From Octopus sinensis (Eukaryota): 64,000 nucleotides of DNA. The translations under genes were made by a program, and so were the position numbers. The DNA lies in NCBI RefSeq assembly GCF_006345805.1, contig NW_021832602.1, positions 124,001 through 188,000 on the forward strand, written 5' to 3'. This document shows, one piece after another, positions 2,153-56,534 of this stretch. Position 1 is the first letter of the stretch. Each line of letters opens with the position of its first letter. Under the pieces are notes generated by a model that worked only from the letters and a program-made list of their open reading frames with translations, was not told the DNA's origin and made no database searches.

Positions 2153-4328
2153 CAGTGTTTCTCAACGTTGGGCCCCAGGCCCACTTGTGGGCCTGAGAAA
2201 TTTTGAAATGGGCCTGAAGATTTAATTGGGCCTGGAGTGGGCCTCAAAGAAAATATGTTAATACTAATACTAATAAATCTTTATTCGTTATTATTTTCAA
2301 ATTGATTTGATTTGTTTTTAATTTAATGATATTGTCATATTTAAATTTAAATATTATAGGCCTGATTGTATAGTTCATGTCAAAAGTACACAAGGAAAAA
2401 AGGAAGACTACACGCAAATACCAGACTGATTTTTTATTACTAGGCTTCATCCCATCAAGTGCTGATTCTAAGAGGCCTGAATGTGTGGACTGTGGCTTAG
2501 TAATGACAAATGTTTCCATGAAGAAATCAAAATTGTTCGCCCATCAACAGTTGAAGCATCCTGCTTCTGTTGGAAAGGAGCGCAGCTATTTCAGGAAGAA
2601 AGTGGAGTTACGCCAAAAGAATGCTCCAAAAACTTTAGAATTCTGCTTAAAAAAAGCAAATGAGCATAATAACAAGACACTAAAAGTCAGTTATGCAGTG
2701 AGTGAACTGGTTGCTAAGGTGGGGAAGCCACATACAATTGCAGAACGTCTGGTGAAGCCAGCAATGTTGATCTGTGCTAAAGAACTGCTAGGAGAACAGG
2801 CTGCCAACATTCTACAAAAAATCCCATTGTCTAATGACACAGTGAAGAGAAGGCAAATTGAAATGGCAGAAAACCTCGAGAAACAGCTTGTGGAAAAATT
2901 AAAAGTTTCTAAGTTCTCACTACAAATTGATGAGACAACAATCAACAATTCTGCCTTATTACTTACTTATGTCCGATATATTGATGCAATGGGAATTCAT
3001 GAAGAAATGTTATTTATAAAAAAGTTGATTGACACACGAAGCGACACTATATATGCGGCTGTTTACGACTATCTGTACGATAATGGGATCCCTCTGTCAA
3101 ATCTGTTGCAGATTGCAACAGACGGTGCCAGCGCTATGACCGGCAAACAGAATGGCTTTGTAGCTAATTAAAAAAAGTTGCCCCTCATATATTGGCAATT
3201 CATTGCATCATCCATCGAGAACATCTTTGTGCTAAATCTCTCAATGATGACATGGAACATGCATTGAAAGTCGCTGTTTCAACAGTGAATTTTGTCAAAG
3301 CCAATGCTTTGCATGACCGCCTATTTCAACATTTATGTGAACATGAGGACCACCAGAGACTCCTCATGCACACTGAAGTGAGATGGCTTTCCAAAGGAAA
3401 TTCCCTAGTTCGTCTTGCTGAAATGTGGGATATGGTTCTTATTTTTGTTCATGACATGAAAACACAAGCTTGTAGCAAGAAGCAGAAAGATAAAGCTGAG
3501 ACTTTGTTTTCAGTGATAAATAACAACGATACAAAAGCAAGGATTTTTTACCTGGCTGACTTATTCGCACATGTCAACCAACTGAACATGACACTGCAAG
3601 GGCGAAATGCTAATCTGATAGATAGTGCTGAGAAAGTACGCTCTTTTTTGAACAAGTTATGTCTCTGGAAGATGCATCTTCAAAAAAATGAATTTGCTTA
3701 TTTTTGTAATTTTGCCAAAACTGCTCCGAGCTCAGAAGTAATCGCAAGCTGCACTGACCACTTGAAATGCTTGAAAGAAGATATGACTAGAAGATTTAAA
3801 GATATCATCGAAATGAATCCGCCTAGTTGGATTATAGATATAGCACATTTTGACGTATTAAGTGAAAAAGACATTGATCCTATTATTGCTGGAGAACTTC
3901 TTGAACTGAAGGAGAACAAGTATTAATGAAAAATATTGAAAGGGATGGCTTATATGGATGGATGAAAGTAGAATCGATTCATCCATTACTCTTTGAAAAA
4001 GTTGTTCCGTTGTACTTGGCTTTCCCACCACTTGGTTGGTTGAGACAGGATTTTCTGCAACAAACGATTTACTCACAAAAAAACGCAATCAATTGCAGAT
4101 TGAGAAGAGAGGAGACTTACGTTTGAGGTTGAACCAAGATCTGGAAATTCAACTTGACAAATTGATAGATAGACATCAAGAGCAGTGTAGTCATTGACAT
4201 TTTAATAAGATTTTTTATGTTAATAAAAATACTTTTTTGTTAATCAAAGTTTTATTAAAGGCAATGGGCCTGAGATTTTATATGACCCTGAAAATGGGCC
4301 TCAGGGAAAAAAAGGTTGAGAAACACTG
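2153..4328 (+). mobile_element. Near-complete hAT (Buster/ZBED5-SCAND3-like) transposon
   Basis: TIR cagtgtttctcaac...gttgagaaacactg; 8-bp TSD caatagac (2145-2152, 4329-4336); gggcctg subterminal repeats. Confidence 0.95.
2377..4197 (+). pseudogene. Buster-type hAT transposase with about 3 single-base frameshifts (possibly sequencing errors)
   Basis: BED finger (CVDC...H...H), FSLQIDET, ATDGASAMTG, HCIIHREHL, HTEVRWLSKG, and FPTTWLVETGFS after frame repair; ends QEQCSH*. Confidence 0.9.
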
Positions 4329-5562: not shown

Positions 5563-6195
5563 AAGAAAGGTATTTACCTTGTTATCGAGTGTATAGTATA
5601 ATGCTCGACAAAAATACCTTTTTATTTGTCACTGTACGTGCAAATATTATACTTATCACACAGTTCTTACATTTTGAAATTCTTAAATTCTTTCGTTATC
5701 AGAATGATAGGTGGTCCAACAAATAGATAATCGTTTTAATAGCCTCAACCATGGCATACTTATTAATATTATAAATACCCGGGAATATGATTTGTTCATT
5801 GATGAATAACGTTCTAAATCGACTGAGTCTGCAATATATCTGCTCGTAATGATGGGTGTTATCTCTGGTTTGGCGTTGATTAATCAAAGGTACATCTGCA
5901 ATCTCTATCCTTCTCAGATTATAATACGTGCATTCTTAGCTTTCTATACACATCACCTACGAGAATGTACGGAATTTCATTCTTAAAGACAATTGATCTG
6001 GATATTCTGAGGCATTGGCTGGGACTTACACTCATTATCGAAGACACTCAACCAATACAAGTAAATTTATAGTTGATTTTGTTCACAGAAAATATAATTT
6101 AATAATTAATATAACATAAATTTTTTAAATATTTTTTTTAAAAATCAATTAAAAAATAATAAATATATTTTTCCACATATCTTTTAGTGGTCCAA

Positions 6196-8411
6196 ATGGA
6201 TCAGACATTTAAATTCTCCAAATACACAGAAATAATGAAGACCAAATTCCTCAGCCAAATAAACTTCAACTCGGCATCCAAGAAGGTAATAAAAACCTAA
6301 AAAAAATATTTACCAGCTACTCGTATGGGACCACACCCTCAAAGACCTAATCGGCATGTTAATCGACATAGAAAGCATTCAAGTCAAACAACCTAAAATA
6401 ACACTCAGAATGAGTGGACATCCTCCACAACAGTCTCCCGCCTCACCACCCACACGAAGGACTACTCCACAATAATATTCATCCTCCGTCCCCACGTCCA
6501 CACTCTCGACAAAGTGACCTCCTATATCGAAATGTAATTCTCATCCACTCAACCACAGCCACGAATCCTCGAATGCACCAAAAGTTGATTTCCAGTTTAT
6601 TTTCGTGCCGCAAGTGACCCAAGTGTGCAGAGAAACCCTGAAAGGTCTGTTGGCGGAGGTGGAGAGTGGCATATCCTCGTTTCCACTGTTCCTTCACCCC
6701 ACAAGTCCTCATGTTTTGTCGATGGAGAGGGAGAATGCCTTCCGAGTAGTCATGTTGGGACATGTAGGACATATTTCTGGAGAATGACAATGTCGCTCTC
6801 TTTGAGGTGAGTTCTGCACTCGTCGAACTGCAGAGGACTTATGGGGTTGTGGGGGAAATATATGGGAAGGGACTTAAAGCCAAGGTTAGCCTCATTTAAT
6901 CACTTTATTAATATAGTTCTAGTTATTAGTATATTATTTAATGCTTAATCCGCTATGCAACAACAATATTCATACTTGAATGTACCAGTACAAACAATTT
7001 AAATCTATTAATTAATGTGTGCCAATCTAAAATTATATCTTAAATAAATTAATTATTACTTTTAAACTAATATTTTTAGTCAGTAGTGAATATGATGTTG
7101 ACACTTATGGAAGGAGACTTTCCGAGAAGCATGATTGACGGACTGATCCTCTTCGAGCGTCCCTCTGACTTCCTTTCCTGTCTGATGACCCAACTGACGT
7201 ACGACGGACTTATCCACGAGTGTGTCCCCGTCTCCAGAGGTCCCCAGACTGGGTCATTCTCAGGTCAAGCCGAGTTCGACGATCCCCGATTTGCTCGACC
7301 CGGCAACCCTGAAACACGGAGAAATGTCGCCTTAGATCCAAATGACGTCATTTTCCGTGAAATTACCGGGAAGAGTTACAATGCGGTGGGACATTTGTTG
7401 AGTCTGAAATCGCGGGAACTCAATCGAGACTGTGAGCGGGGGATGACTCACAATCTGGCACAAATGAAGGAATTCACATCCAGGATTGAATCCGTGCTTG
7501 ATCTTAAAACAAGTCTGGCAACACGTCACTAATTTTGGCCGTAATTTCTTAGACATTACAATCGCGGAGATTCTCTCAGATTATGTGAACGACCCGAAAT
7601 TCCGTGAAAACATCGGCACGGAACAAGGTTGGGAAATGAGTGTGAGAGACAGCGTTTGTTCGGGGAGAGGGCATCGATCGAATGAAAAACTCGGTGGAGG
7701 ACGCCATAATCCGTGGAGATGACCTGACTAGGACTCTCCGCCTGGTTTGTCTTCAGTGTGTCTGCAATGGCGGCTTCGACTTCAAACTGTTGCAGGATTA
7801 CAAACGAGAACTCATTCAGGTGTCCACTTTGCTTATTCTCAGAGTTATGGGTTTGGTCAGATATTCATTACTCTTGCCAATTTGCAGAAGGTAGGACTAT
7901 TGGCGCAGGGGGGAAAGAAGAAACAGTCAGTTTTGTCTTTGTGTCCCCCAATGGAGGACGTCGATGAGGTCAATCCGTCTGATCCTTCCTACGTCTTTGC
8001 AATCTACGCTCCACTTATTTCCCGATTATGTCCTGCCATTTTCCGAAATCGGAGTCTGGACTTACTAAAGGCTGTTCCCGGTCCCACAGTGTTGTACTCG
8101 CAGACGCAAGGGGAGAAGACTTGGCTTAAACGGAGTGTGTTGGTTTTGGGTTGACGTAGGCGATTCGATTGTGTCCTTGAGTTCTCGGCGGTCGAATGTG
8201 GTGGACACGAAGGTGGTTCTCGTTTTTTTCATTGGGGGAGTGACACAAGCTGAGATTGACGCACTTCGGTTTTTGTCGGGGCAATCAAGTCAGTTTAATT
8301 TTTTTGGAGGAATTAGATGGCTGTGAGTATGTGATTGGGGCTACCAATATTATCAACGGGACGGATTTGATCAACTCATTAGCCGAGCCCCTTGAATTTT
8401 CCATGACATAA
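6196..8411 (+). CDS. VPS33: Vacuolar protein sorting 33 (Sec1/Munc18 family), about 12 exons
   Basis: Removing introns 6286-6316, 6383-6408, 6534-6558, 6746-6767, 6885-7079, 7240-7263, 7525-7552, 7628-7652, 7820-7842, 8135-8159 and 8289-8316 gives an open frame. Motifs: IIFILRP, FIFVP, LSME, IYGKG, LMTQLTYDGLI, SYVFAIYAPLISRL, LVFFIGGVTQAEIDALRFL, ATNIING. Stop TAA at 8409-8411. Confidence 0.92.
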
Positions 8412-9033
8412 TCAGATTTTTATAACACAATATTTTTCTAATTTTCATTATGACTTTAAATTATTATTTACGGCCACAGGGCCGATAGGACCATTTGGTC
8501 ACACAAAACATTTAACCACGTACTTTCACGCAAACAAGGGTGAAGTGTTGCGCTGCTCATTTCCACGTGTTTTTTCGCTTATCACTTTAAACAATTTTTG
8601 TCATTCAAAATATAATGCACTTGACTATTTCAATCAAATGGGTTTGAGATCGACCTACATTTTGGGAATTTCTGAAAAGAATTCAATCACCCAATGCCTA
8701 TTGTGAAACAAACTCCCAAATTGAACATGAAATTTAGAAACGACATTTAGAAAGGGATACAAATTACAGGCAATAAATATTTATATTTAGTTAAACCGGA
8801 AATAACCAATTGTACGTATTCGACAGGCTCTTTAAAATCAGTTTTGATAAAAAATATAAATAATTGGAGAACAAATATACAAAATTCGAAACAACAAACG
8901 ATGTAAATTCACAATAATTTTTAAAAACGGACCAAAATAATAACTTTTATTGTTTTTTGTGCTGCACAAGCTTTGTCGTGATTCGTGGCATCGCGAAAGT
9001 GCATAAATAATACTCTATTTTGTATTTATAGGG

Positions 9034-9940
9034 CAGCGGTTCTCAGCCTTTTTTAGACTGGGGACCACTTTTGCACTATAAAATTTTGTGGGGACCACCT
9101 TAAATAAAATAAACATTTTTTGGTATTAGCGCACAATTTTTGGCCTCGTCAGGGCCAGGTTTAGACATGTTCGAATATTTATTATAAAAATAACATGAAC
9201 ATTATGAAAATAACAGAAAATTTAATAGTAATTTAGTGAGATTTCTGATCTTGTTTGCTCAGAATAATTTTACTTATATCAGGCTCTATGTTCGACAAAG
9301 CTACTCGCATATCATCTTGTACCCGTAGTCTATTTCTATATTTTGTTTTTAGAAAAGTCAGACACGACATCGCCATTTCACAGTGATAAGTAGTGGGGAA
9401 TGCAAGTATTGATTCCAATGCAGTTTTACTCAAAATGGGGAATTCTTTCGCCATCTGACACCTAACAATAAAAAGTAATTATTAATGAGAATACCAAAAA
9501 TCTAATAATGAAGTACATTTGAAAATAATCTAAGCAGACTGATTACATTGAAGTTCAATCAAGCTCTGCTGAAAATTGAGATTGGGGCAATGAATTTAGT
9601 GAATCCAAATTGTACGTAAGAATCCGACCAAAGACGACGATTCTTGTTAACCATAACTAGAATGATAAACCACGCTAATCAAATCAGATTAATTTCAATG
9701 TTTTTGATTTATACTTAATTGTACAATTAGTTTTAAATTTAATATATTGTTATTTTTCGAAAATTCCGGGGGACCACTAAAAATTTTCTGGGGACCACGA
9801 TTGAGAACCGCTTGATTAATTTCAATGTTTTTGATTTATACTTAATTGTACAATTAGTTTTAACTTTAATATATTTTTATTTTTCGAAAATTCCTGGGGA
9901 CCACTAAAAATTTTCTGGGGACCACGGTTGAGAACCGCTG
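9034..9940 (-). mobile_element. Non-autonomous hAT (Buster-like) with a duplicated terminal segment
   Basis: TIR cagcggttctca...tgagaaccgctg; TSD ttataggg (9026-9033, 9941-9948). Dimerisation-domain remnant FPTTYHCEMAMS with a 33-nt intron at 9462-9494. About 125 bp of the end is tandemly duplicated (9687-9812 and 9813-9940). Confidence 0.9.
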
Positions 9941-28268: not shown

Positions 28269-29750
28269 ATGTCTTTTTGTCAATCTCGAAGAAAGTATAC
28301 AGCTGAAGTATACCTAAAAAATGACTTGTGGATTAAAGTAGTTCACATATGACAATATCCTTAGGGATTCGTTGCCTCAGGAAACGCTGACTCGTTTATG
28401 ATAGACTTTGACCAGTATTCCAGAATCTGTAATCCCTTAGCCTTCCATCGGGGACGTATCTCTTGAATCAACTGAGAATCCCAGGAGAGTACTCCGAAGT
28501 GACCAAAGTGGAAACTGGCATGGAAATAGAAGTTGACTCACAACTTCCTATTTTAGGTCCCCGTCAAAATTTCCGGAAGTAATGCCGTTGGTTGGTCAGC
28601 CTGCAAAGTCGATCGTGTCCGTGGAGAATTCTTTTCTGTGATTGGCGGAGAGGGCACCAACGCCTCTTACACTGTCGATGAAGTCCGAACCGTCACTCAC
28701 AAGTATCTCCCAGTCCTGACAGTTGTAGTCCCACGATGGACAAAAGAGGAGCTCCCCGCTACCACTTTGCCCAAATTAAAGTCCCTCAAGCACTATTAGA
28801 TAGGTTGTGGTGGTCGTTTACTGTTTAGCGTGATGAGTGCAGAAAGCATTGCCAAACTTACTGAGGACTGCAAAGAGCCAGTCTCAATTTCTGTGGATGA
28901 GTCGACTGGGCTGCTTGATTTGATTGTATGTGTTGTGGTGTGACTGGCAGACTCCGAATGCGGCCGAATTGAGGCAAGTTGTGAATATTGCGGACATGCA
29001 CATCAACTTTATTCGGACAGAAATGAAACTAAATTCCCAATTGGTTTCAATGCAGTGTCGAATGTCCGGAGATTTGACAAATGTCAAGCCTGGGACTATC
29101 ATTGACGTCTTCAAAGTGGACAAGTCTCTGATGTGTCACGTCATCGGAACCAAAGGAATTAATATTGACACTGCACGTAAAATACGCGGAATTCTGGACG
29201 TGGTCGTCGATGATGAGACCTCGTCTGTCAAAATTGCCGGAAATGTATTTGTAGAATATTGAGAGTGTTAGAACGCGTCCTCGGTGAGTAAGGCGAGGAG
29301 TATGTTGGAGTATGTCGAGCAAGTCATTCCCATCGAGCAGTCCTTGATTCGTATGCCTGGTGGATTCATTGTAGAGAGAATTTATGGACAGAAGGGCGAG
29401 AATTTACAAAAGATTGTGGATCGTGCGGAAGTGCGGAGACTATTTACGCATCACAGCGAGGAGGAGAAGGTGTACGAATTGCACATCATTGGCACAAAGA
29501 AGAATGTCGATTCGGCTGTGTTTATGCTCTCATTTGTTATTCGACGTGTTGAGGTTGTGTCTTTTTATGATTTTAGTCATTTGTGGCAAAACTCACTCAG
29601 CTCAATGAATTGAGGGACAAAATCCGGCAAATGGGTCTTCATAACAAGTTGTCTGAGGGTGAACTGGAACGTGAAAATGCTGCGAATTGTGGTATTATTT
29701 GTTTTGTATTGTCAGTTGAAGTTCAAAATGATCTCTCTGAACAAATTTAA
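28269..29750 (+). CDS. FMR1: Fragile X family RNA-binding protein (2 Agenet, KH0, KH1, KH2), no RGG tail
   Basis: Removing about 10 micro-introns gives an open frame collinear with FMRP: AEVYLKNDLWIK|GFV, EIE|VPV..VGWSACKVDRVRGEF, IKVPQAL, ADMHINFIRTEMKL, VIGTKGINIDTARKI, KARSMLEYVE, IYGQKGENLQKIVD, IIGTKKNV, LRDKIRQMG. Stop TAA at 29748-29750. Confidence 0.88.
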
Positions 29751-48316: not shown

Positions 48317-50707
48317 ATGGATTCGTCATCATTACAAGACTTGGTGGATCTATTCCAAGATGTACAAATACACCAATCACCTGCAATGTTCATATTCTAA
48401 TAAAAGAATATATTAGATTGTCCAAAAGTAATTGGCTCGACATACTTAAAGTACTGCAACGAAAGGAATACATCAATTTGGTATTCTCACGCTCAGGTCA
48501 GTATATAATGACTGAAACACACATCAAGGACTGTTTATCCCACCAAATTAACTTGAAAGGTAAATATTGTAAGTTTTGTTAGGTTTTTTGAATATCCAAA
48601 AATTTGCTAATTACTTAAATGTGTGTATTAATGACATCAATTGTATTATTGAAACATTTCTAACCGAAAATACGCACATCGACAAAATAGACGACCAACT
48701 ATATTCAAAGTATTCTATTTAATTAATGATAGTCAGTTTTACCAAGATTTAGCAAATAAATTAAGGACATTACTCTTAAATAATCTACGAATAAGGCTAG
48801 TTGATATAACATTGGAGTTGGACATTCCCTACTCTCTACTCCTCAAGGTACCTTAGTCGTCTTAGTGAAGGTCATATCCCAAAGGATTGAGGGAGTCGTC
48901 CTCAGTGAGGGAGGAGATGTGCTCTACTCTACTCAGGCTGTCGACCGATGTGAGGCAGTCATTCGAGGAATCACTTGTGCTGCCATAAAGTGTGTAATTC
49001 TACTGTATTGTAGGCCTATTCCTCTCCTTCTGTTGAAGGAAAGAGTGGAGGGAGTGGATGTCTTGTATAAGGGTTGTCCTTGTATTATTTAAAACAAGTA
49101 GAGATGCATATAAAGAATAGCCTTGATACATTTGGTCTTATAAGTATGTACTAGTATATATATGTTTAGAGTATTCCTTATATGATAAATGTGGTATCCG
49201 TAATGTGTTTAAATACACCCAAATGGTCACACAAGAAAAACTTTACCACCTGACCACGTGTTGCATAACATTATCTAAGCGCGAAAATATACTCGAAATA
49301 ATTTTGGCGCTACTGAGAACTAATAAATATATTGATTTAGTCACAATTGTAACCTCTCATATAATTATCTTCTAAGCTGCCAGAAGAATTTGAAGGTGAT
49401 GACGTCATCTCCTTTATATCTGAGGTGGACCTGGAGAGTCTGGACTGTCGAATAGAGAAGGAGAGGTGGATAATCTTAGAGGACTACGTCGAGTCCATAA
49501 CTCAGAAGCTTCGAGAAGGCATGATGGAGTACGCTCATCAGGTTAATATATATTATATTTATTATAGAATTTGGATAGGATTAAAATAGTCTTAAACCAA
49601 ATGGAAAATAAAAGTTTTATAAGCTCCGCAAAGTGAAAAGAGGTTCAAAAAAATACCCCCTCAGTGGAAAGATCATTCCGCATGTGAGCCCGGACTGTCT
49701 AATCCAGTAGGAGGCAAATATAATTCCATTTTATACAAAAGATGAGTATTTTGAATTCTTCAGAGTAAACTGTCCGTCGAATGAGGAGATGTATGAAGTT
49801 CTAGTCAATATATTTGACGAGTAAGTAATGTAAGTATTGGTAGTGTGCTGGTCCGGGAATTTCAGTTTGTCGTAAGGCAGGCTGTTGAAGAAAGCAAAAT
49901 AATTAAAAGTTGTGATTCGAATGGTCAAATTTCGTATATTCGAGATTATATTGGCACGTGGATACCCCAGTTTTTGTGTTATGGAAAGGGCTTGGAGTGC
50001 CTCACAACAGAATCGCAAAATATTCGCTCCATTTTTGAAAATCATTTATTAAAAAATGTCGGTTTTCCACTTGTTGATTTTGTTTTACGAGAGACTGCAA
50101 TAAGAGAGAATATATTAGAAACTGATTATATAATTGATTCACAGGTAACAATCATTAATATATGATAAGATGAAAAGAATGGATACCCTAAACAAACTAC
50201 ATTCATCACTGAGAAATGACTTTGTCTCAATCTACGACACTGCAAAGACAGTTTATAGAGTAGTCTAAAACATCTTAGAGTACTTTGATTGAGTTGTTGG
50301 GAAAGTTGATTCACAGCCAGTTTGGACTGGATATTCCACAGTTGGACGATGAGATAGAAAGGTGGTGTGAGTGTATTTGTGTGTAGAGAAGTCGTCCTGA
50401 AAAATAGAGCCAATCTGAGACAAGTACTGGAGACGAGGAAAAGTGAGGCTGCTGTGTTTTTGGGAGGAGTGTCCCTCTTGTTTAATATTGTGACTGAAAT
50501 GACATTGCTGATTCCAGGGCGGTGTGGAGGGGTGGTGTGCCGTATGTTAGCGGGGAGTATTACCCCACACGAATGTGCTCTCTTGGCCATTTGCGAGGGT
50601 GACTATCTTTTTTAATTGTAGAGAGTGCTTGTCGGCAGTTGAGAAGCGGGGGATGTGAGGTCAGTGAACAGATGAATGAACTAAGAAATATTATTTTGAA
50701 TAAGTAA
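48317..50707 (+). CDS. UFL1: E3 UFM1-protein ligase 1 (multi-exon; internal exons not all resolved)
   Basis: N-terminus LFQDVQ...|LSKSNWLDILKVL...SGQYIMT...G|FLNI...LNV; AVIRGITCAIK|PIPL; C-terminus LLFNIVTEMTLLIPGRC...ALLAICE matches UFL1 LLFQ...LHAPGRC. Stop TAA at 50705-50707. Confidence 0.85.
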
Positions 50708-55265: not shown

Positions 55266-56534
55266 TTATCTTCTCACAAAACAAGCAATAAAAAATCCCC
55301 CAGTCTTGTTCTTTGAAGGGGAAGACCGGACACACAATCTACCGACCTTCTCCACTCCGCGATGTCTCCACTTCCTCATAAGACCCCTCAGACGAAATCG
55401 GTCTCCACAGGAGGCGAGTGCCTTAGTCATAGAACACCCAAATGCATACAAATTGAACGACATGTTCATTCTCCTCGACATTAATAGAGCAGGTTGAGTA
55501 GATCACACGTCTCACTGAAGGAAAGGACAAGGCATGGATCAGAATCCGTCTTTGGAATGCCCTAAGAGACCGAATCCGCGTTCTGTACTCCTCGCATTGG
55601 GTGTCCGGCCTGACAGAAGGACATTCCATCCCTCGAAAATATCACCCACACAACCTGAGCCAGAACAGGAAGGGTCCACCAGAATGTGAGTCACCTGGTC
55701 GAACGAGGGGTCATTTGGGTCCACCGACAGAAAGTCTTTGTGTAAGACTGTGGCAGAGGAACACCCAAAAAGTGTCATTTGCCTTTGGAGGACTTGAACT
55801 CTCTCGGAGTCGATATCAAAGGCAAAAACCCTGCCCGAATTTTTCATGGTGGCACACAAGAGAGATGTCTTATTCCCAGGGGCAGCACAACAGTCAATCA
55901 CGTGAGCGTGGAGAGGAGGTTTGAGCAAGTGGGCGGCCAAACATGAAGCCTTGTCTTGAAGGACTACTCGACCCTGAGTGTACAGAGGATGAGTGTGGAG
56001 ATCAGTCATTGGCGGAAAAACTAATAGATTTGGACATGTTGGATCGATTTTGTAATTACTTAATCCCGAGTGGTCAAAATGGTCACAGACTACTTTGATG
56101 TTGGCTTTGATTGTATTCACTCGCACGTAGCGTGGAATGACGACATTGCCAGTTTCATTCAAATCAACGAGCGAGAATGATTTTTGAATAACGTCACGGT
56201 TACGGTTGAATATTTTCTATAGCTTAACATGAAATAAATACTTGGAATTTCCTCGCTCTGTGGATTCCTTTGCCAAATATATATTCGTGCAATAGAATGA
56301 GGGAAAGGTCTTCATTTTGTATGAATTGGGTGATTTGGGGGAATTTGCTTATGACTTTGTGTAGAATAGTGAATTTATTGCAAGTGCCTGATAGGATAGA
56401 GAGAAGGGAGTTTTTATTCTAAATGTTTAGGTTATTTAAACTTTAAATTGGCTTTTGTATATTAAATTTTTAATTCCTCCATATCCGTTTCTGTGCTGAT
56501 GCAAGATATCTGCAGCCTCCTTGTACACAGACAT
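55266..56534 (-). CDS. NSUN5: rRNA m5C methyltransferase NSUN5 (Rcm1-like)
   Basis: MSVYKEAA...IKNLIY; PRYVRVNTIK, LQDKASC, IDCCAAPGNKT, LVDPSCSGSG, VIYSTCSINVEENE, TGGFFIACFVR*. Micro-introns present; the 5' exons are not fully resolved. Confidence 0.93.

What the first reader, a model, noticed from the sequence alone, without database searches (positions are those of the whole stretch)
6196..8411. C-rich to G-rich skew gradient across host-gene blocks, resetting at an AT-rich intron
Seen, counted by hand on the + strand: 6421-6480 C26/G5; 6841-6880 G17/C2; after the 195-nt AT-rich intron it resets, 7141-7200 C21/G11; 8101-8160 G24/C7. NSUN5 shows the same left-C/right-G shape (55321-55380 C24/G8; 56281-56340 G19/C4). 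FMR1, NDK and UFL1 look similar by eye. Introns follow the gradient (gtcaaacaacctaaaataacactcag early, gtgtgttggttttgggttgacgtag late), so protein constraint does not explain it. Young TEs do not obviously show it. Inference: a strand-asymmetric mutational process is anchored on AT-rich spacers at ~0.5-1.5 kb scale. Candidates are very dense replication origins, or gene-sized amplification/excision units; somatic amplification and circular DNA are reported for dicyemids.
Basis: partly seen in the sequence, partly recalled or inferred. Interest (0 to 1): 0.75.

Follow-up and report, generated by a model that had tools for sequence, protein, structure and literature searches.

The report
Mirrored mutation scars around AT islands
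In a tiny-intron parasite genome (likely a dicyemid), silent sites in genes are A/C-rich just after and G/T-rich just before AT-rich patches, including most long AT-rich introns tested, a mirror-image pattern that likely records damage to briefly single-stranded DNA, most likely at meiotic break sites rather than at dense replication origins.

Summary
All six hand counts are exact. The gene is a Sec1/VPS33-like gene, and its 11 introns, including the 195-nt one, are missing from spliced contigs. In 2.05 Mb from 9 contigs, 198 of 247 coding blocks run from A/C-rich to G/T-rich at synonymous sites and intron cores. The shift fades 450-600 nt from the edge and grows with the AT-richness of the neighbouring gap. 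It is absent at convergent 3' ends, and near strong islands the two ends are almost exact reverse-complement mirrors. Ten of 12 curated long AT-rich introns reset it, but modestly (p 0.009; 0.07 without the three RNA-checked cases). The spectrum is mainly C>T on the strand whose 3' end faces the island, which is the geometry of break resection. Canonical origin polarity and gene-sized amplification units fit poorly. A 5'-C/3'-G gradient is known in fungi (PMC3315797). This scan reported the same gradient on at least six other pieces of this genome. Mechanism is inferred: resection 0.38, transcription-linked 0.30, replication 0.17.

The parts
6196..8411 (+). Sec1-family (VPS33-like) gene, 12 exons, 587 aa
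   Evidence: Pfam Sec1 on 4 of 10 ORFs tested; 11 introns skipped in spliced contigs; open frame with a single terminal stop. The VPS33 label is recalled; Pfam gives only Sec1.
6070..6190 (.). AT-rich island upstream of the ATG (likely promoter, likely nucleosome-depleted); limits approximate
   Evidence: Sequence; GC 0.23 at 6000-6199. Promoter role is inferred.
6196..6495 (+). A/C-rich zone after the island
   Evidence: Neutral keto:amino 9:56; all sites G36:C86
6585..6884 (+). G/T-rich zone before the long intron
   Evidence: Neutral keto:amino 35:19; G88:C58
6885..7079 (+). 195-nt AT-rich GT-AG intron (GC 0.21; lowest 50-nt window 0.06), reset point
   Evidence: Joint in 4 of 4 runs; composition
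7080..7379 (+). Modest A/C-shifted zone after the intron
   Evidence: Neutral keto:amino 24:31, p 0.035 against the preceding zone
8112..8411 (+). G/T-rich zone before the 3' end
   Evidence: Neutral keto:amino 55:16; G90:C47
8412..8470 (.). AT-rich patch after the stop codon; limits approximate
   Evidence: Sequence
6383..6408 (+). 26-nt A/C-rich short intron (early)
   Evidence: Left out in 2 of 4 runs
8135..8159 (+). 25-nt G/T-rich short intron (late)
   Evidence: Left out in 3 of 4 runs
55266..56534 (-). NSUN5-like gene with the same gradient (left C, right G on +)
   Evidence: Pfam NSUN5_fdxn-like E 8e-18; model; thirds -0.18/+0.18/+0.17
28269..29750 (+).
   Evidence: Model; raw GC skew -0.01/+0.15/+0.29
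48508..50052 (+).
   Evidence: jump +0.24

Best explanation
Silent sites flanking AT-rich islands carry a mirror-image excess of transitions, as if C>T (and less A>G) were raised on the strand whose 3' end points at the island, and this likely records deamination of single-stranded 3' overhangs left by resection of recurrent, probably meiotic SPO11, breaks at nucleosome-depleted sites. Shown: the skew, its neutrality, polarity, range of about 450-600 nt, dependence on island strength, near-symmetry, and resets at most AT-rich introns and a few exonic points. Inferred: that the islands are nucleosome-depleted, that breaks form there in the germ line, that the sites are stable over long times, and that deamination is the chemistry. 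A small sense-strand G/T excess in mid-gene is likely ordinary transcription-associated asymmetry on top.
For: Neutral and general: 198 of 247 blocks, 9 of 9 contigs; same shift in 8 of 8 four-fold families, and in intron cores. Mirror symmetry at two-fold sites next to strong islands: 5' G/(A+G) 0.379 and C/(C+T) 0.575; 3' C/(C+T) 0.356 and G/(A+G) 0.624. The 3' signal needs an island: +0.17 with a core of 14% GC or less, +0.01 without, -0.02 +/- 0.04 at 14 convergent ends. Absolute-distance decay with a plateau in blocks over 1.6 kb. Intronic islands act on both sides, +0.14(0.07) before and -0.16(0.08) after; 10 of 12 introns reset. Same-polarity steps inside coding blocks on both gene strands: 16 of 187 blocks at z<-3 against 5.1 expected (profiles). 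No clear CpG or TpC context, and GC dips near edges. A SPO11-like gene with 21-27-nt introns is present. Literature: human hotspot flanks show strand-asymmetric C>N and A>N mutations in the resected zone (PMC7615360, passages; matching its polarity to mine is my reading). Arabidopsis breaks concentrate in AT-rich promoters, terminators and introns (PMC5880243, passages).
Against: The far side of 136 promoter islands is nearly flat (keto about +0.01, GC skew about +0.04), and the far side of 110 3' islands does not flip sign (+0.06 in the first 100 nt); young TE-derived intergenic DNA may explain this but I did not date it. Private differences in short repeat copies near islands lean the wrong way (C>T 269/6216, G>A 224/6148; genic islands 11/271 vs 4/272). 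Relative to the mid-gene level the 5' shift is about twice the 3' shift, and in 21 tandem pairs the upstream gene gets +0.09(0.05) against -0.19(0.04); in 9 pairs with gaps of 230 nt or less it was about 0. 5' ends without a strong island still show -0.13. GC and TA skew are uncorrelated across 763 tiles (rho 0.016). The intron test is small, curated by me, and p is 0.07 without the three RNA-checked cases. In fungi the pattern is much stronger in C. albicans than in S. cerevisiae or S. pombe (PMC3315797); C. albicans lacks a known conventional meiosis (recalled). Dicyemids multiply largely asexually (recalled), which dilutes a meiotic signal.
Confidence: 0.38

Rival explanations
1. Transcription-linked mutation at nucleosome-depleted islands. 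Each island starts or stops transcripts in both directions, and R-loops of transcripts running toward an island (antisense at starts, sense at ends) expose the same strand to deamination. AT-rich introns and exonic steps would be cryptic promoters.
For: The skew is confined to gene bodies; gene-far islands and the upstream side of promoters are flat. The 5' shift exceeds the 3' shift relative to mid-gene and persists weakly without a strong island. The same 5'-C/3'-G shape in fungi is ascribed to transcription (PMC3315797, parts 1-2 of 4 read). Antisense R-loops peak at rice TSSs (PMC6673715, passages).
Against: Ordinary bubble or R-loop deamination of the coding strand gives the opposite sign at 5' ends. 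Convergent 3' ends terminate transcription yet show nothing. Absolute two-fold values are mirror-symmetric regardless of gene direction.
Confidence: 0.3
2. Replication-linked asymmetry. Either weak origins sit at most islands with yeast-type polarity (leading strand A/C-rich), or forks pause when they run into islands and expose the lagging template.
For: Symmetric about islands and independent of gene strand. In yeasts the leading strand is A/C-rich (PMC3459929, passages). Nearly every yeast intergenic nucleosome-free region may load Mcm (PMC10945306, passages). G-rich sequence lies upstream of metazoan initiation sites (PMC7506530, passages).
Against: Canonical lagging-template deamination gives a rise of GC skew across an origin, also at yeast Mcm sites (PMC10945306); here it falls. 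The skew fades over a fixed 450-600 nt and plateaus instead of changing steadily between anchors. Anchors about 1 kb apart are denser than I know origins to fire (recalled).
Confidence: 0.17
3. Selection on RNA (5' structure, R-loop avoidance, U/GU-rich 3'-end signals) shapes the gradient.
For: The 3' shift at four-fold sites is mostly a gain of T.
Against: It is equally present in spliced-out intron cores, reaches hundreds of nt, is absent at convergent ends, and mirrors across strands.
Confidence: 0.05
4. Gene-sized amplification or excision units.
For: Somatic rearrangement, amplification and circles are reported for dicyemids (PMC6543705, passages).
Against: Somatic events are not inherited and cannot set synonymous composition. 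The reported circles (median 702 bp) yielded only mitochondrial domains. Contigs run 294 kb to 1.3 Mb across blocks. No back-joint within the two genes appeared in the laid contigs, though these behave as transcripts.
Confidence: 0.03

Closest known systems
Opposite GC skews at 5' and 3' gene ends in unicellular fungi (McLean and Tirosh 2011, PMC3315797; parts 1-2 of 4 read)
   Same: Coding strand C-rich at 5' and G-rich at 3' ends, plateau in the middle, present at four-fold sites.
   Different: Here TA skew changes in step (A-rich 5', T-rich 3'), whereas the fungal AT skew is flat. Here the 3' signal needs an AT island, the pattern resets at long AT-rich introns, and flanks outside genes are nearly flat. 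The organism is an animal by inference.
Strand-asymmetric mutation in resected flanks of human meiotic hotspots (PMC7615360, PMC11922761; passages)
   Same: Loss of C and A on the single-stranded 3' overhang on each side, flipping across a point.
   Different: Seen there as new mutations over 1-2 kb at PRDM9 sites; here as fixed composition over about 0.5 kb at AT islands, with no break map.
Arabidopsis SPO11-1 hotspots in AT-rich promoters, terminators and introns (PMC5880243; passages)
   Same: Same three classes of anchor, graded by AT-richness.
   Different: The passages I saw report no base skew; breaks are mapped there and only inferred here.
Replication-associated skews (bacteria, human S-jumps, yeast; PMC3459929, PMC10945306, PMC11874978; passages)
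   Same: Skew jump at a point, independent of gene strand; yeast polarity matches.
   Different: Canonical sign is opposite; the scale here is sub-kilobase with a plateau.
C>G skew at plant and fungal transcription starts (PMC555766; search listing and start of abstract only)
   Same: C-rich coding strand just after the start.
   Different: That listing covers the 5' end only; the mirrored 3' and intronic components are extra here.

Membership tests
Fungal-type 5'C/3'G gene skew | Coding strand C-biased at 5' and G-biased at 3' end | tested here: met
   Intron cores -0.15 to -0.20 at 5', +0.21 to +0.30 at 3'; four-fold -0.19 to -0.23 at 5', about +0.04 at 100-300 nt from the 3' end but -0.10 in the last 100 nt
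Fungal-type 5'C/3'G gene skew | Present at four-fold degenerate sites | tested here: met
   8 of 8 families shift
Fungal-type 5'C/3'G gene skew | AT skew flat along the gene | tested here: not met
   Four-fold TA skew -0.10 at 5', +0.17 at 3'
Fungal-type 5'C/3'G gene skew | Strongest C bias in promoter or 5' UTR | tested here: not met
   GC skew upstream of predicted ATGs lies between -0.05 and +0.08; starts are predicted, not mapped
Meiotic DSB resection footprint | C and A lost on the strand whose 3' end faces the centre, flipping across it | tested here: met
   Composition only:
Meiotic DSB resection footprint | Symmetric on both sides of the anchor | tested here: inconclusive
   Met at two-fold sites and intronic islands; about 1:2 in tandem pairs; not seen in intergenic flanks
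Meiotic DSB resection footprint | SPO11 present in the organism | tested here: met
   TP6A_N hit on C8459 next to a predicted Topo VI A-like gene with 21-27-nt introns
Meiotic DSB resection footprint | Asymmetry in recent mutations | tested here: inconclusive
   Short repeat copies lean the other way; only about 270 C and 270 G sites near genic islands
Meiotic DSB resection footprint | Breaks mapped at the anchors | not testable with these tools
   Needs SPO11-oligo, END-seq or DMC1 ssDNA sequencing
Replication-origin skew jump | GC skew rises across the origin (canonical) | tested here: not met
   It falls across islands; matches only the yeast A/C-rich leading strand
Replication-origin skew jump | Skew changes steadily between adjacent origins, scaling with distance | tested here: not met
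   Fixed 450-600 nt decay and plateau in long blocks
Replication-origin skew jump | Fork direction switches at the site | not testable with these tools
   Needs OK-seq or SNS-seq
Dicyemida (organism) | Tiny introns, about 37% GC, about half repeats, co-assembled with a large host genome | tested here: met
   Modal intron 23-26 nt, GC 35-38%, 50% repeat cover, against 38 bp mean, 36.7% and 48.9% in PMC6736024 (passages); G000 is 2.72 Gb with a second, large-scaffold SPO11 hit
Dicyemida (organism) | Phylogenetic placement | not tested
   One homolog search with an 86-aa exon found nothing; no tree built

The most novel reading that the evidence does not exclude
This animal genome carries a readable fossil map of long-lived meiotic break hotspots. 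Promoters, AT-rich introns and some GC-rich exonic points are each flanked by a half-kilobase resection scar strong enough to set synonymous codon use gene by gene, and the unexplained 5'-C/3'-G skews of fungi and plants could share this cause.
Probability: 0.3. Interest if true: 0.8.

Novelty: new variant of a known kind. Interest (0 to 1): 0.52.

Why it matters
The cause of gene-end GC skews in fungi and plants is unsettled. A compact animal genome in which the skew is large, transition-based, mirror-symmetric, absent at island-free convergent ends and reset inside genes separates the anchor from the transcript ends, and makes break, transcription and origin models directly testable. If resection is the cause, hotspot positions and tract lengths could be read from sequence alone. 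It also biases codon and amino-acid use by position, which matters for placing these long-branch animals in trees.

Tried and rejected
1) First intron test (24 of 30 predicted long AT-core introns reset) was rejected: Pfam and peptide reading showed many were merged tandem genes, e.g. tetraspanin/MBTP1 and RMI1/eIF1A. It was replaced by 12 curated introns: 3 shown by spliced contigs, 4 by Pfam continuity, 5 by domain architecture or recall. Left out: merges, unresolved gaps (jumps -0.30, -0.14, -0.04, +0.09), two introns too close to the gene start, and an enolase gap with no AT core whose jump was about +0.34. 2) First gene-finder setting over-called introns and was dropped; the final setting split the target gene at its long intron, so statistics use blocks. 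3) Gene-far islands, repeat DNA and private differences in short repeats gave no support. 4) No RNA holder was listed as such; spliced contigs were used only for intron positions. 5) Homolog search for organism identity found nothing. 6) A/T polarity inside promoter islands: none. 7) No shared motif was evident by eye at 9 exonic steps; no motif search was run. 8) Literature: 'dicyem' + 'GC skew' returned 2 papers, both on mitogenomes; searches for resection-derived compositional skew returned 1, 0 and 2 papers. The library lacks most subscription papers and I opened no supplements, so absence from print is weakly shown.

Full report
Observation. All six counts are exact. The region is one plus-strand Sec1-family gene. 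Contigs from 4 runs in 3 studies lack 11 GT-AG segments, ten of 22-31 nt and one of 195 nt at 6885-7079, which gives an open 587-aa frame. The runs are not on record as RNA and one shares a sample with the possible source of the DNA. At neutral sites keto:amino goes 9:56, 35:19, then across the long intron 24:31 and 55:16. The first rise has p 1e-8, the reset p 0.035. The pattern left A/C, right G/T is its own reverse complement, so NSUN5 on the minus strand showing it says nothing for or against transcription.

Context. The window lies on a 294-kb contig of a 2.72-Gb assembly. A short repeat from the window led to other contigs, and I analysed 2,047,187 bases from 9 of them. GC is 35-38%, half the sample is repeated within itself, and the modal intron is 23-26 nt. 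This matches published dicyemid figures (PMC6736024, passages). Two SPO11-type hits exist, one on a scaffold over 62 Mb and one beside a tiny-intron gene, as expected for a parasite co-assembled with its host. The dicyemid label is inferred; no tree was built.

Method. I wrote a self-trained gene finder. On the test gene 9 of 10 predicted introns were right and 9 of 11 were found. Long gaps are ambiguous: permissive settings merge tandem genes and strict ones split the target gene. Statistics therefore use 249 blocks of exons joined by short introns, from 224 gene models.

Generality. In 198 of 247 blocks with enough sites the 3' end is more G/T-rich than the 5' end (mean 0.244 +/- 0.019), with a positive mean in 9 of 9 contigs. 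Four-fold sites, intron cores, all 8 four-fold families and two-fold sites agree. Two-fold G/(A+G) is 0.426, 0.560, 0.578 and C/(C+T) is 0.548, 0.477, 0.414 at 5', middle and 3'. The shift depends on absolute distance, fades by 450-600 nt, and long blocks have a plateau. No clear dinucleotide context stands out.

What anchors it. Amplitude follows the AT-richness of the neighbouring gap: 5' -0.27, -0.16, -0.13 and 3' +0.17, +0.07, +0.01 for cores of up to 14%, 14-22% and over 22% GC. Fourteen convergent 3' ends, none with a core of 14% GC or less, show -0.02 +/- 0.04; 22 divergent 5' ends show -0.25 +/- 0.02. Next to strong islands the two ends mirror each other in absolute terms (0.379 and 0.575 against 0.356 and 0.624). 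Part of the apparent 2:1 excess at 5' ends comes from measuring against a mid-gene level that is itself G/T-shifted.

Reset inside genes. Twelve curated long AT-core introns give a mean jump of -0.14, with 10 of 12 negative, against +0.064 at 914 short introns (p 0.009; 0.019 without the discovery gene; 0.068 without all three RNA-checked cases). With four-fold and intron sites only it was 9 of 12. Two of the RNA-checked introns (L120, 136 and 62 nt) were chosen for checking because their jumps were large. Several gap limits are approximate, and rows left out are listed under Tried and rejected. Following a lead from earlier scan notes, I also found same-polarity steps inside coding blocks: 16 of 187 at z<-3 against 5.1 expected, several in GC-rich exons with no island, on both gene strands, with local amplitudes up to about 0.5. 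An AT island is therefore the usual anchor but not a necessary one.

Results against a simple island model. About 2,200 islands far from genes show no skew. The intergenic side of promoter islands is almost flat, and the far side of 3' islands does not flip. Private differences in short repeats lean the wrong way (all). Upstream genes in 21 tandem pairs get about half the downstream amplitude, and about none in the 9 closest pairs. GC and TA skews are uncorrelated across tiles. Intergenic DNA here is largely repeat-derived and may be too young to have built a skew, but I did not date it.

Mechanism. The composition reads as extra C>T, and less A>G, on the strand whose 3' end faces the anchor (inference). 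Deamination in a transcription bubble leaving the island, or on the lagging template of a fork leaving it, gives the opposite sign. Three processes expose the right strand. Resection of a break does so by its geometry, and human hotspot flanks show C>N and A>N asymmetry (PMC7615360, passages; PMC11922761, passages), while Arabidopsis breaks favour AT-rich promoters, terminators and introns (PMC5880243, passages). R-loops of transcripts running toward the island would too (antisense R-loops at rice starts, PMC6673715, passages). So would forks pausing at islands, or origins with the yeast A/C-rich leading strand (PMC3459929, passages), although skew rises across yeast Mcm sites (PMC10945306, passages). 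I commit to resection at 0.38 because one rule covers polarity, symmetry, island dependence, silent convergent ends and intragenic resets. Transcription follows at 0.30 because the signal is confined to genes and is stronger at starts. Nothing here maps a break, a transcript start or an origin.

Comparison and novelty. The gene-level shape is published for fungi (PMC3315797, parts 1-2 of 4 read), where AT skew is flat and the promoter carries the strongest bias; neither holds here. I found no paper on it in dicyemids (limited library, no supplements seen). This scan has already reported the gradient on at least six other pieces of the same genome, mostly read as transcription-linked, and one with an intronic reset; none near this window. 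Those notes are unchecked and not independent support. The tests added here are the island-dependence and mirror test at two-fold sites, the convergent-end control and the multi-gene intron test. Verdict: real, a new variant of a known kind, mechanism open; interest 0.52.

Noticed in passing
L010 about 7760; L002 about 2130 and 4110; L008 about 4770; L012 about 5250; L186 about 8650; L103 about 2190: Sharp G/T-left to C/A-right steps inside GC-rich coding blocks with no AT island, on both gene strands; five lie in the first 125 kb of the window's own contig.
   Followed up: partly
L202 (G000:C8459:149365-152478): SPO11/Topo VI A-like gene with 21-27-nt introns; a second SPO11-type exon lies on the very large scaffold C7 (L201), consistent with two organisms in one assembly.
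   Followed up: partly
L188 about 4876; L101 about 8577; L195 about 3721; L174 about 658: Unrelated same-strand genes only 48-83 nt apart (isochorismatase/cofilin-domain, LSM/NAD(P)H-hydrate dehydratase, TPR/PRORP, RMI1/eIF1A), which raises operon-like transcription or trans-splicing; not tested.
   Followed up: no
window 6061-6188: A GT...TTTTAG AT-rich segment ends 7 nt before the ATG of the target gene; it could be a 5' UTR intron or a trans-splice acceptor. No laid contig reached it.
   Followed up: no
window 9020-9220 and 9700-9930: Young short repeat with at least 40 matches at 97-99% identity on many contigs, likely a MITE; used to find contigs of the same organism.
   Followed up: partly
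L008-L009 (contig 79162-81555) and L011 (104684-106201): Tandem array with a unit of about 95 bp; related copies occur in inverted orientation and on other contigs.
   Followed up: no
all 9 contigs: CpG observed/expected is 0.84-0.98, suggesting little germ-line CpG methylation; four-fold GC differs between contigs from 0.38 to 0.58.
   Followed up: no
window 2518-3635: Transposase-like ORF pieces upstream of the target gene (label recalled).
   Followed up: no
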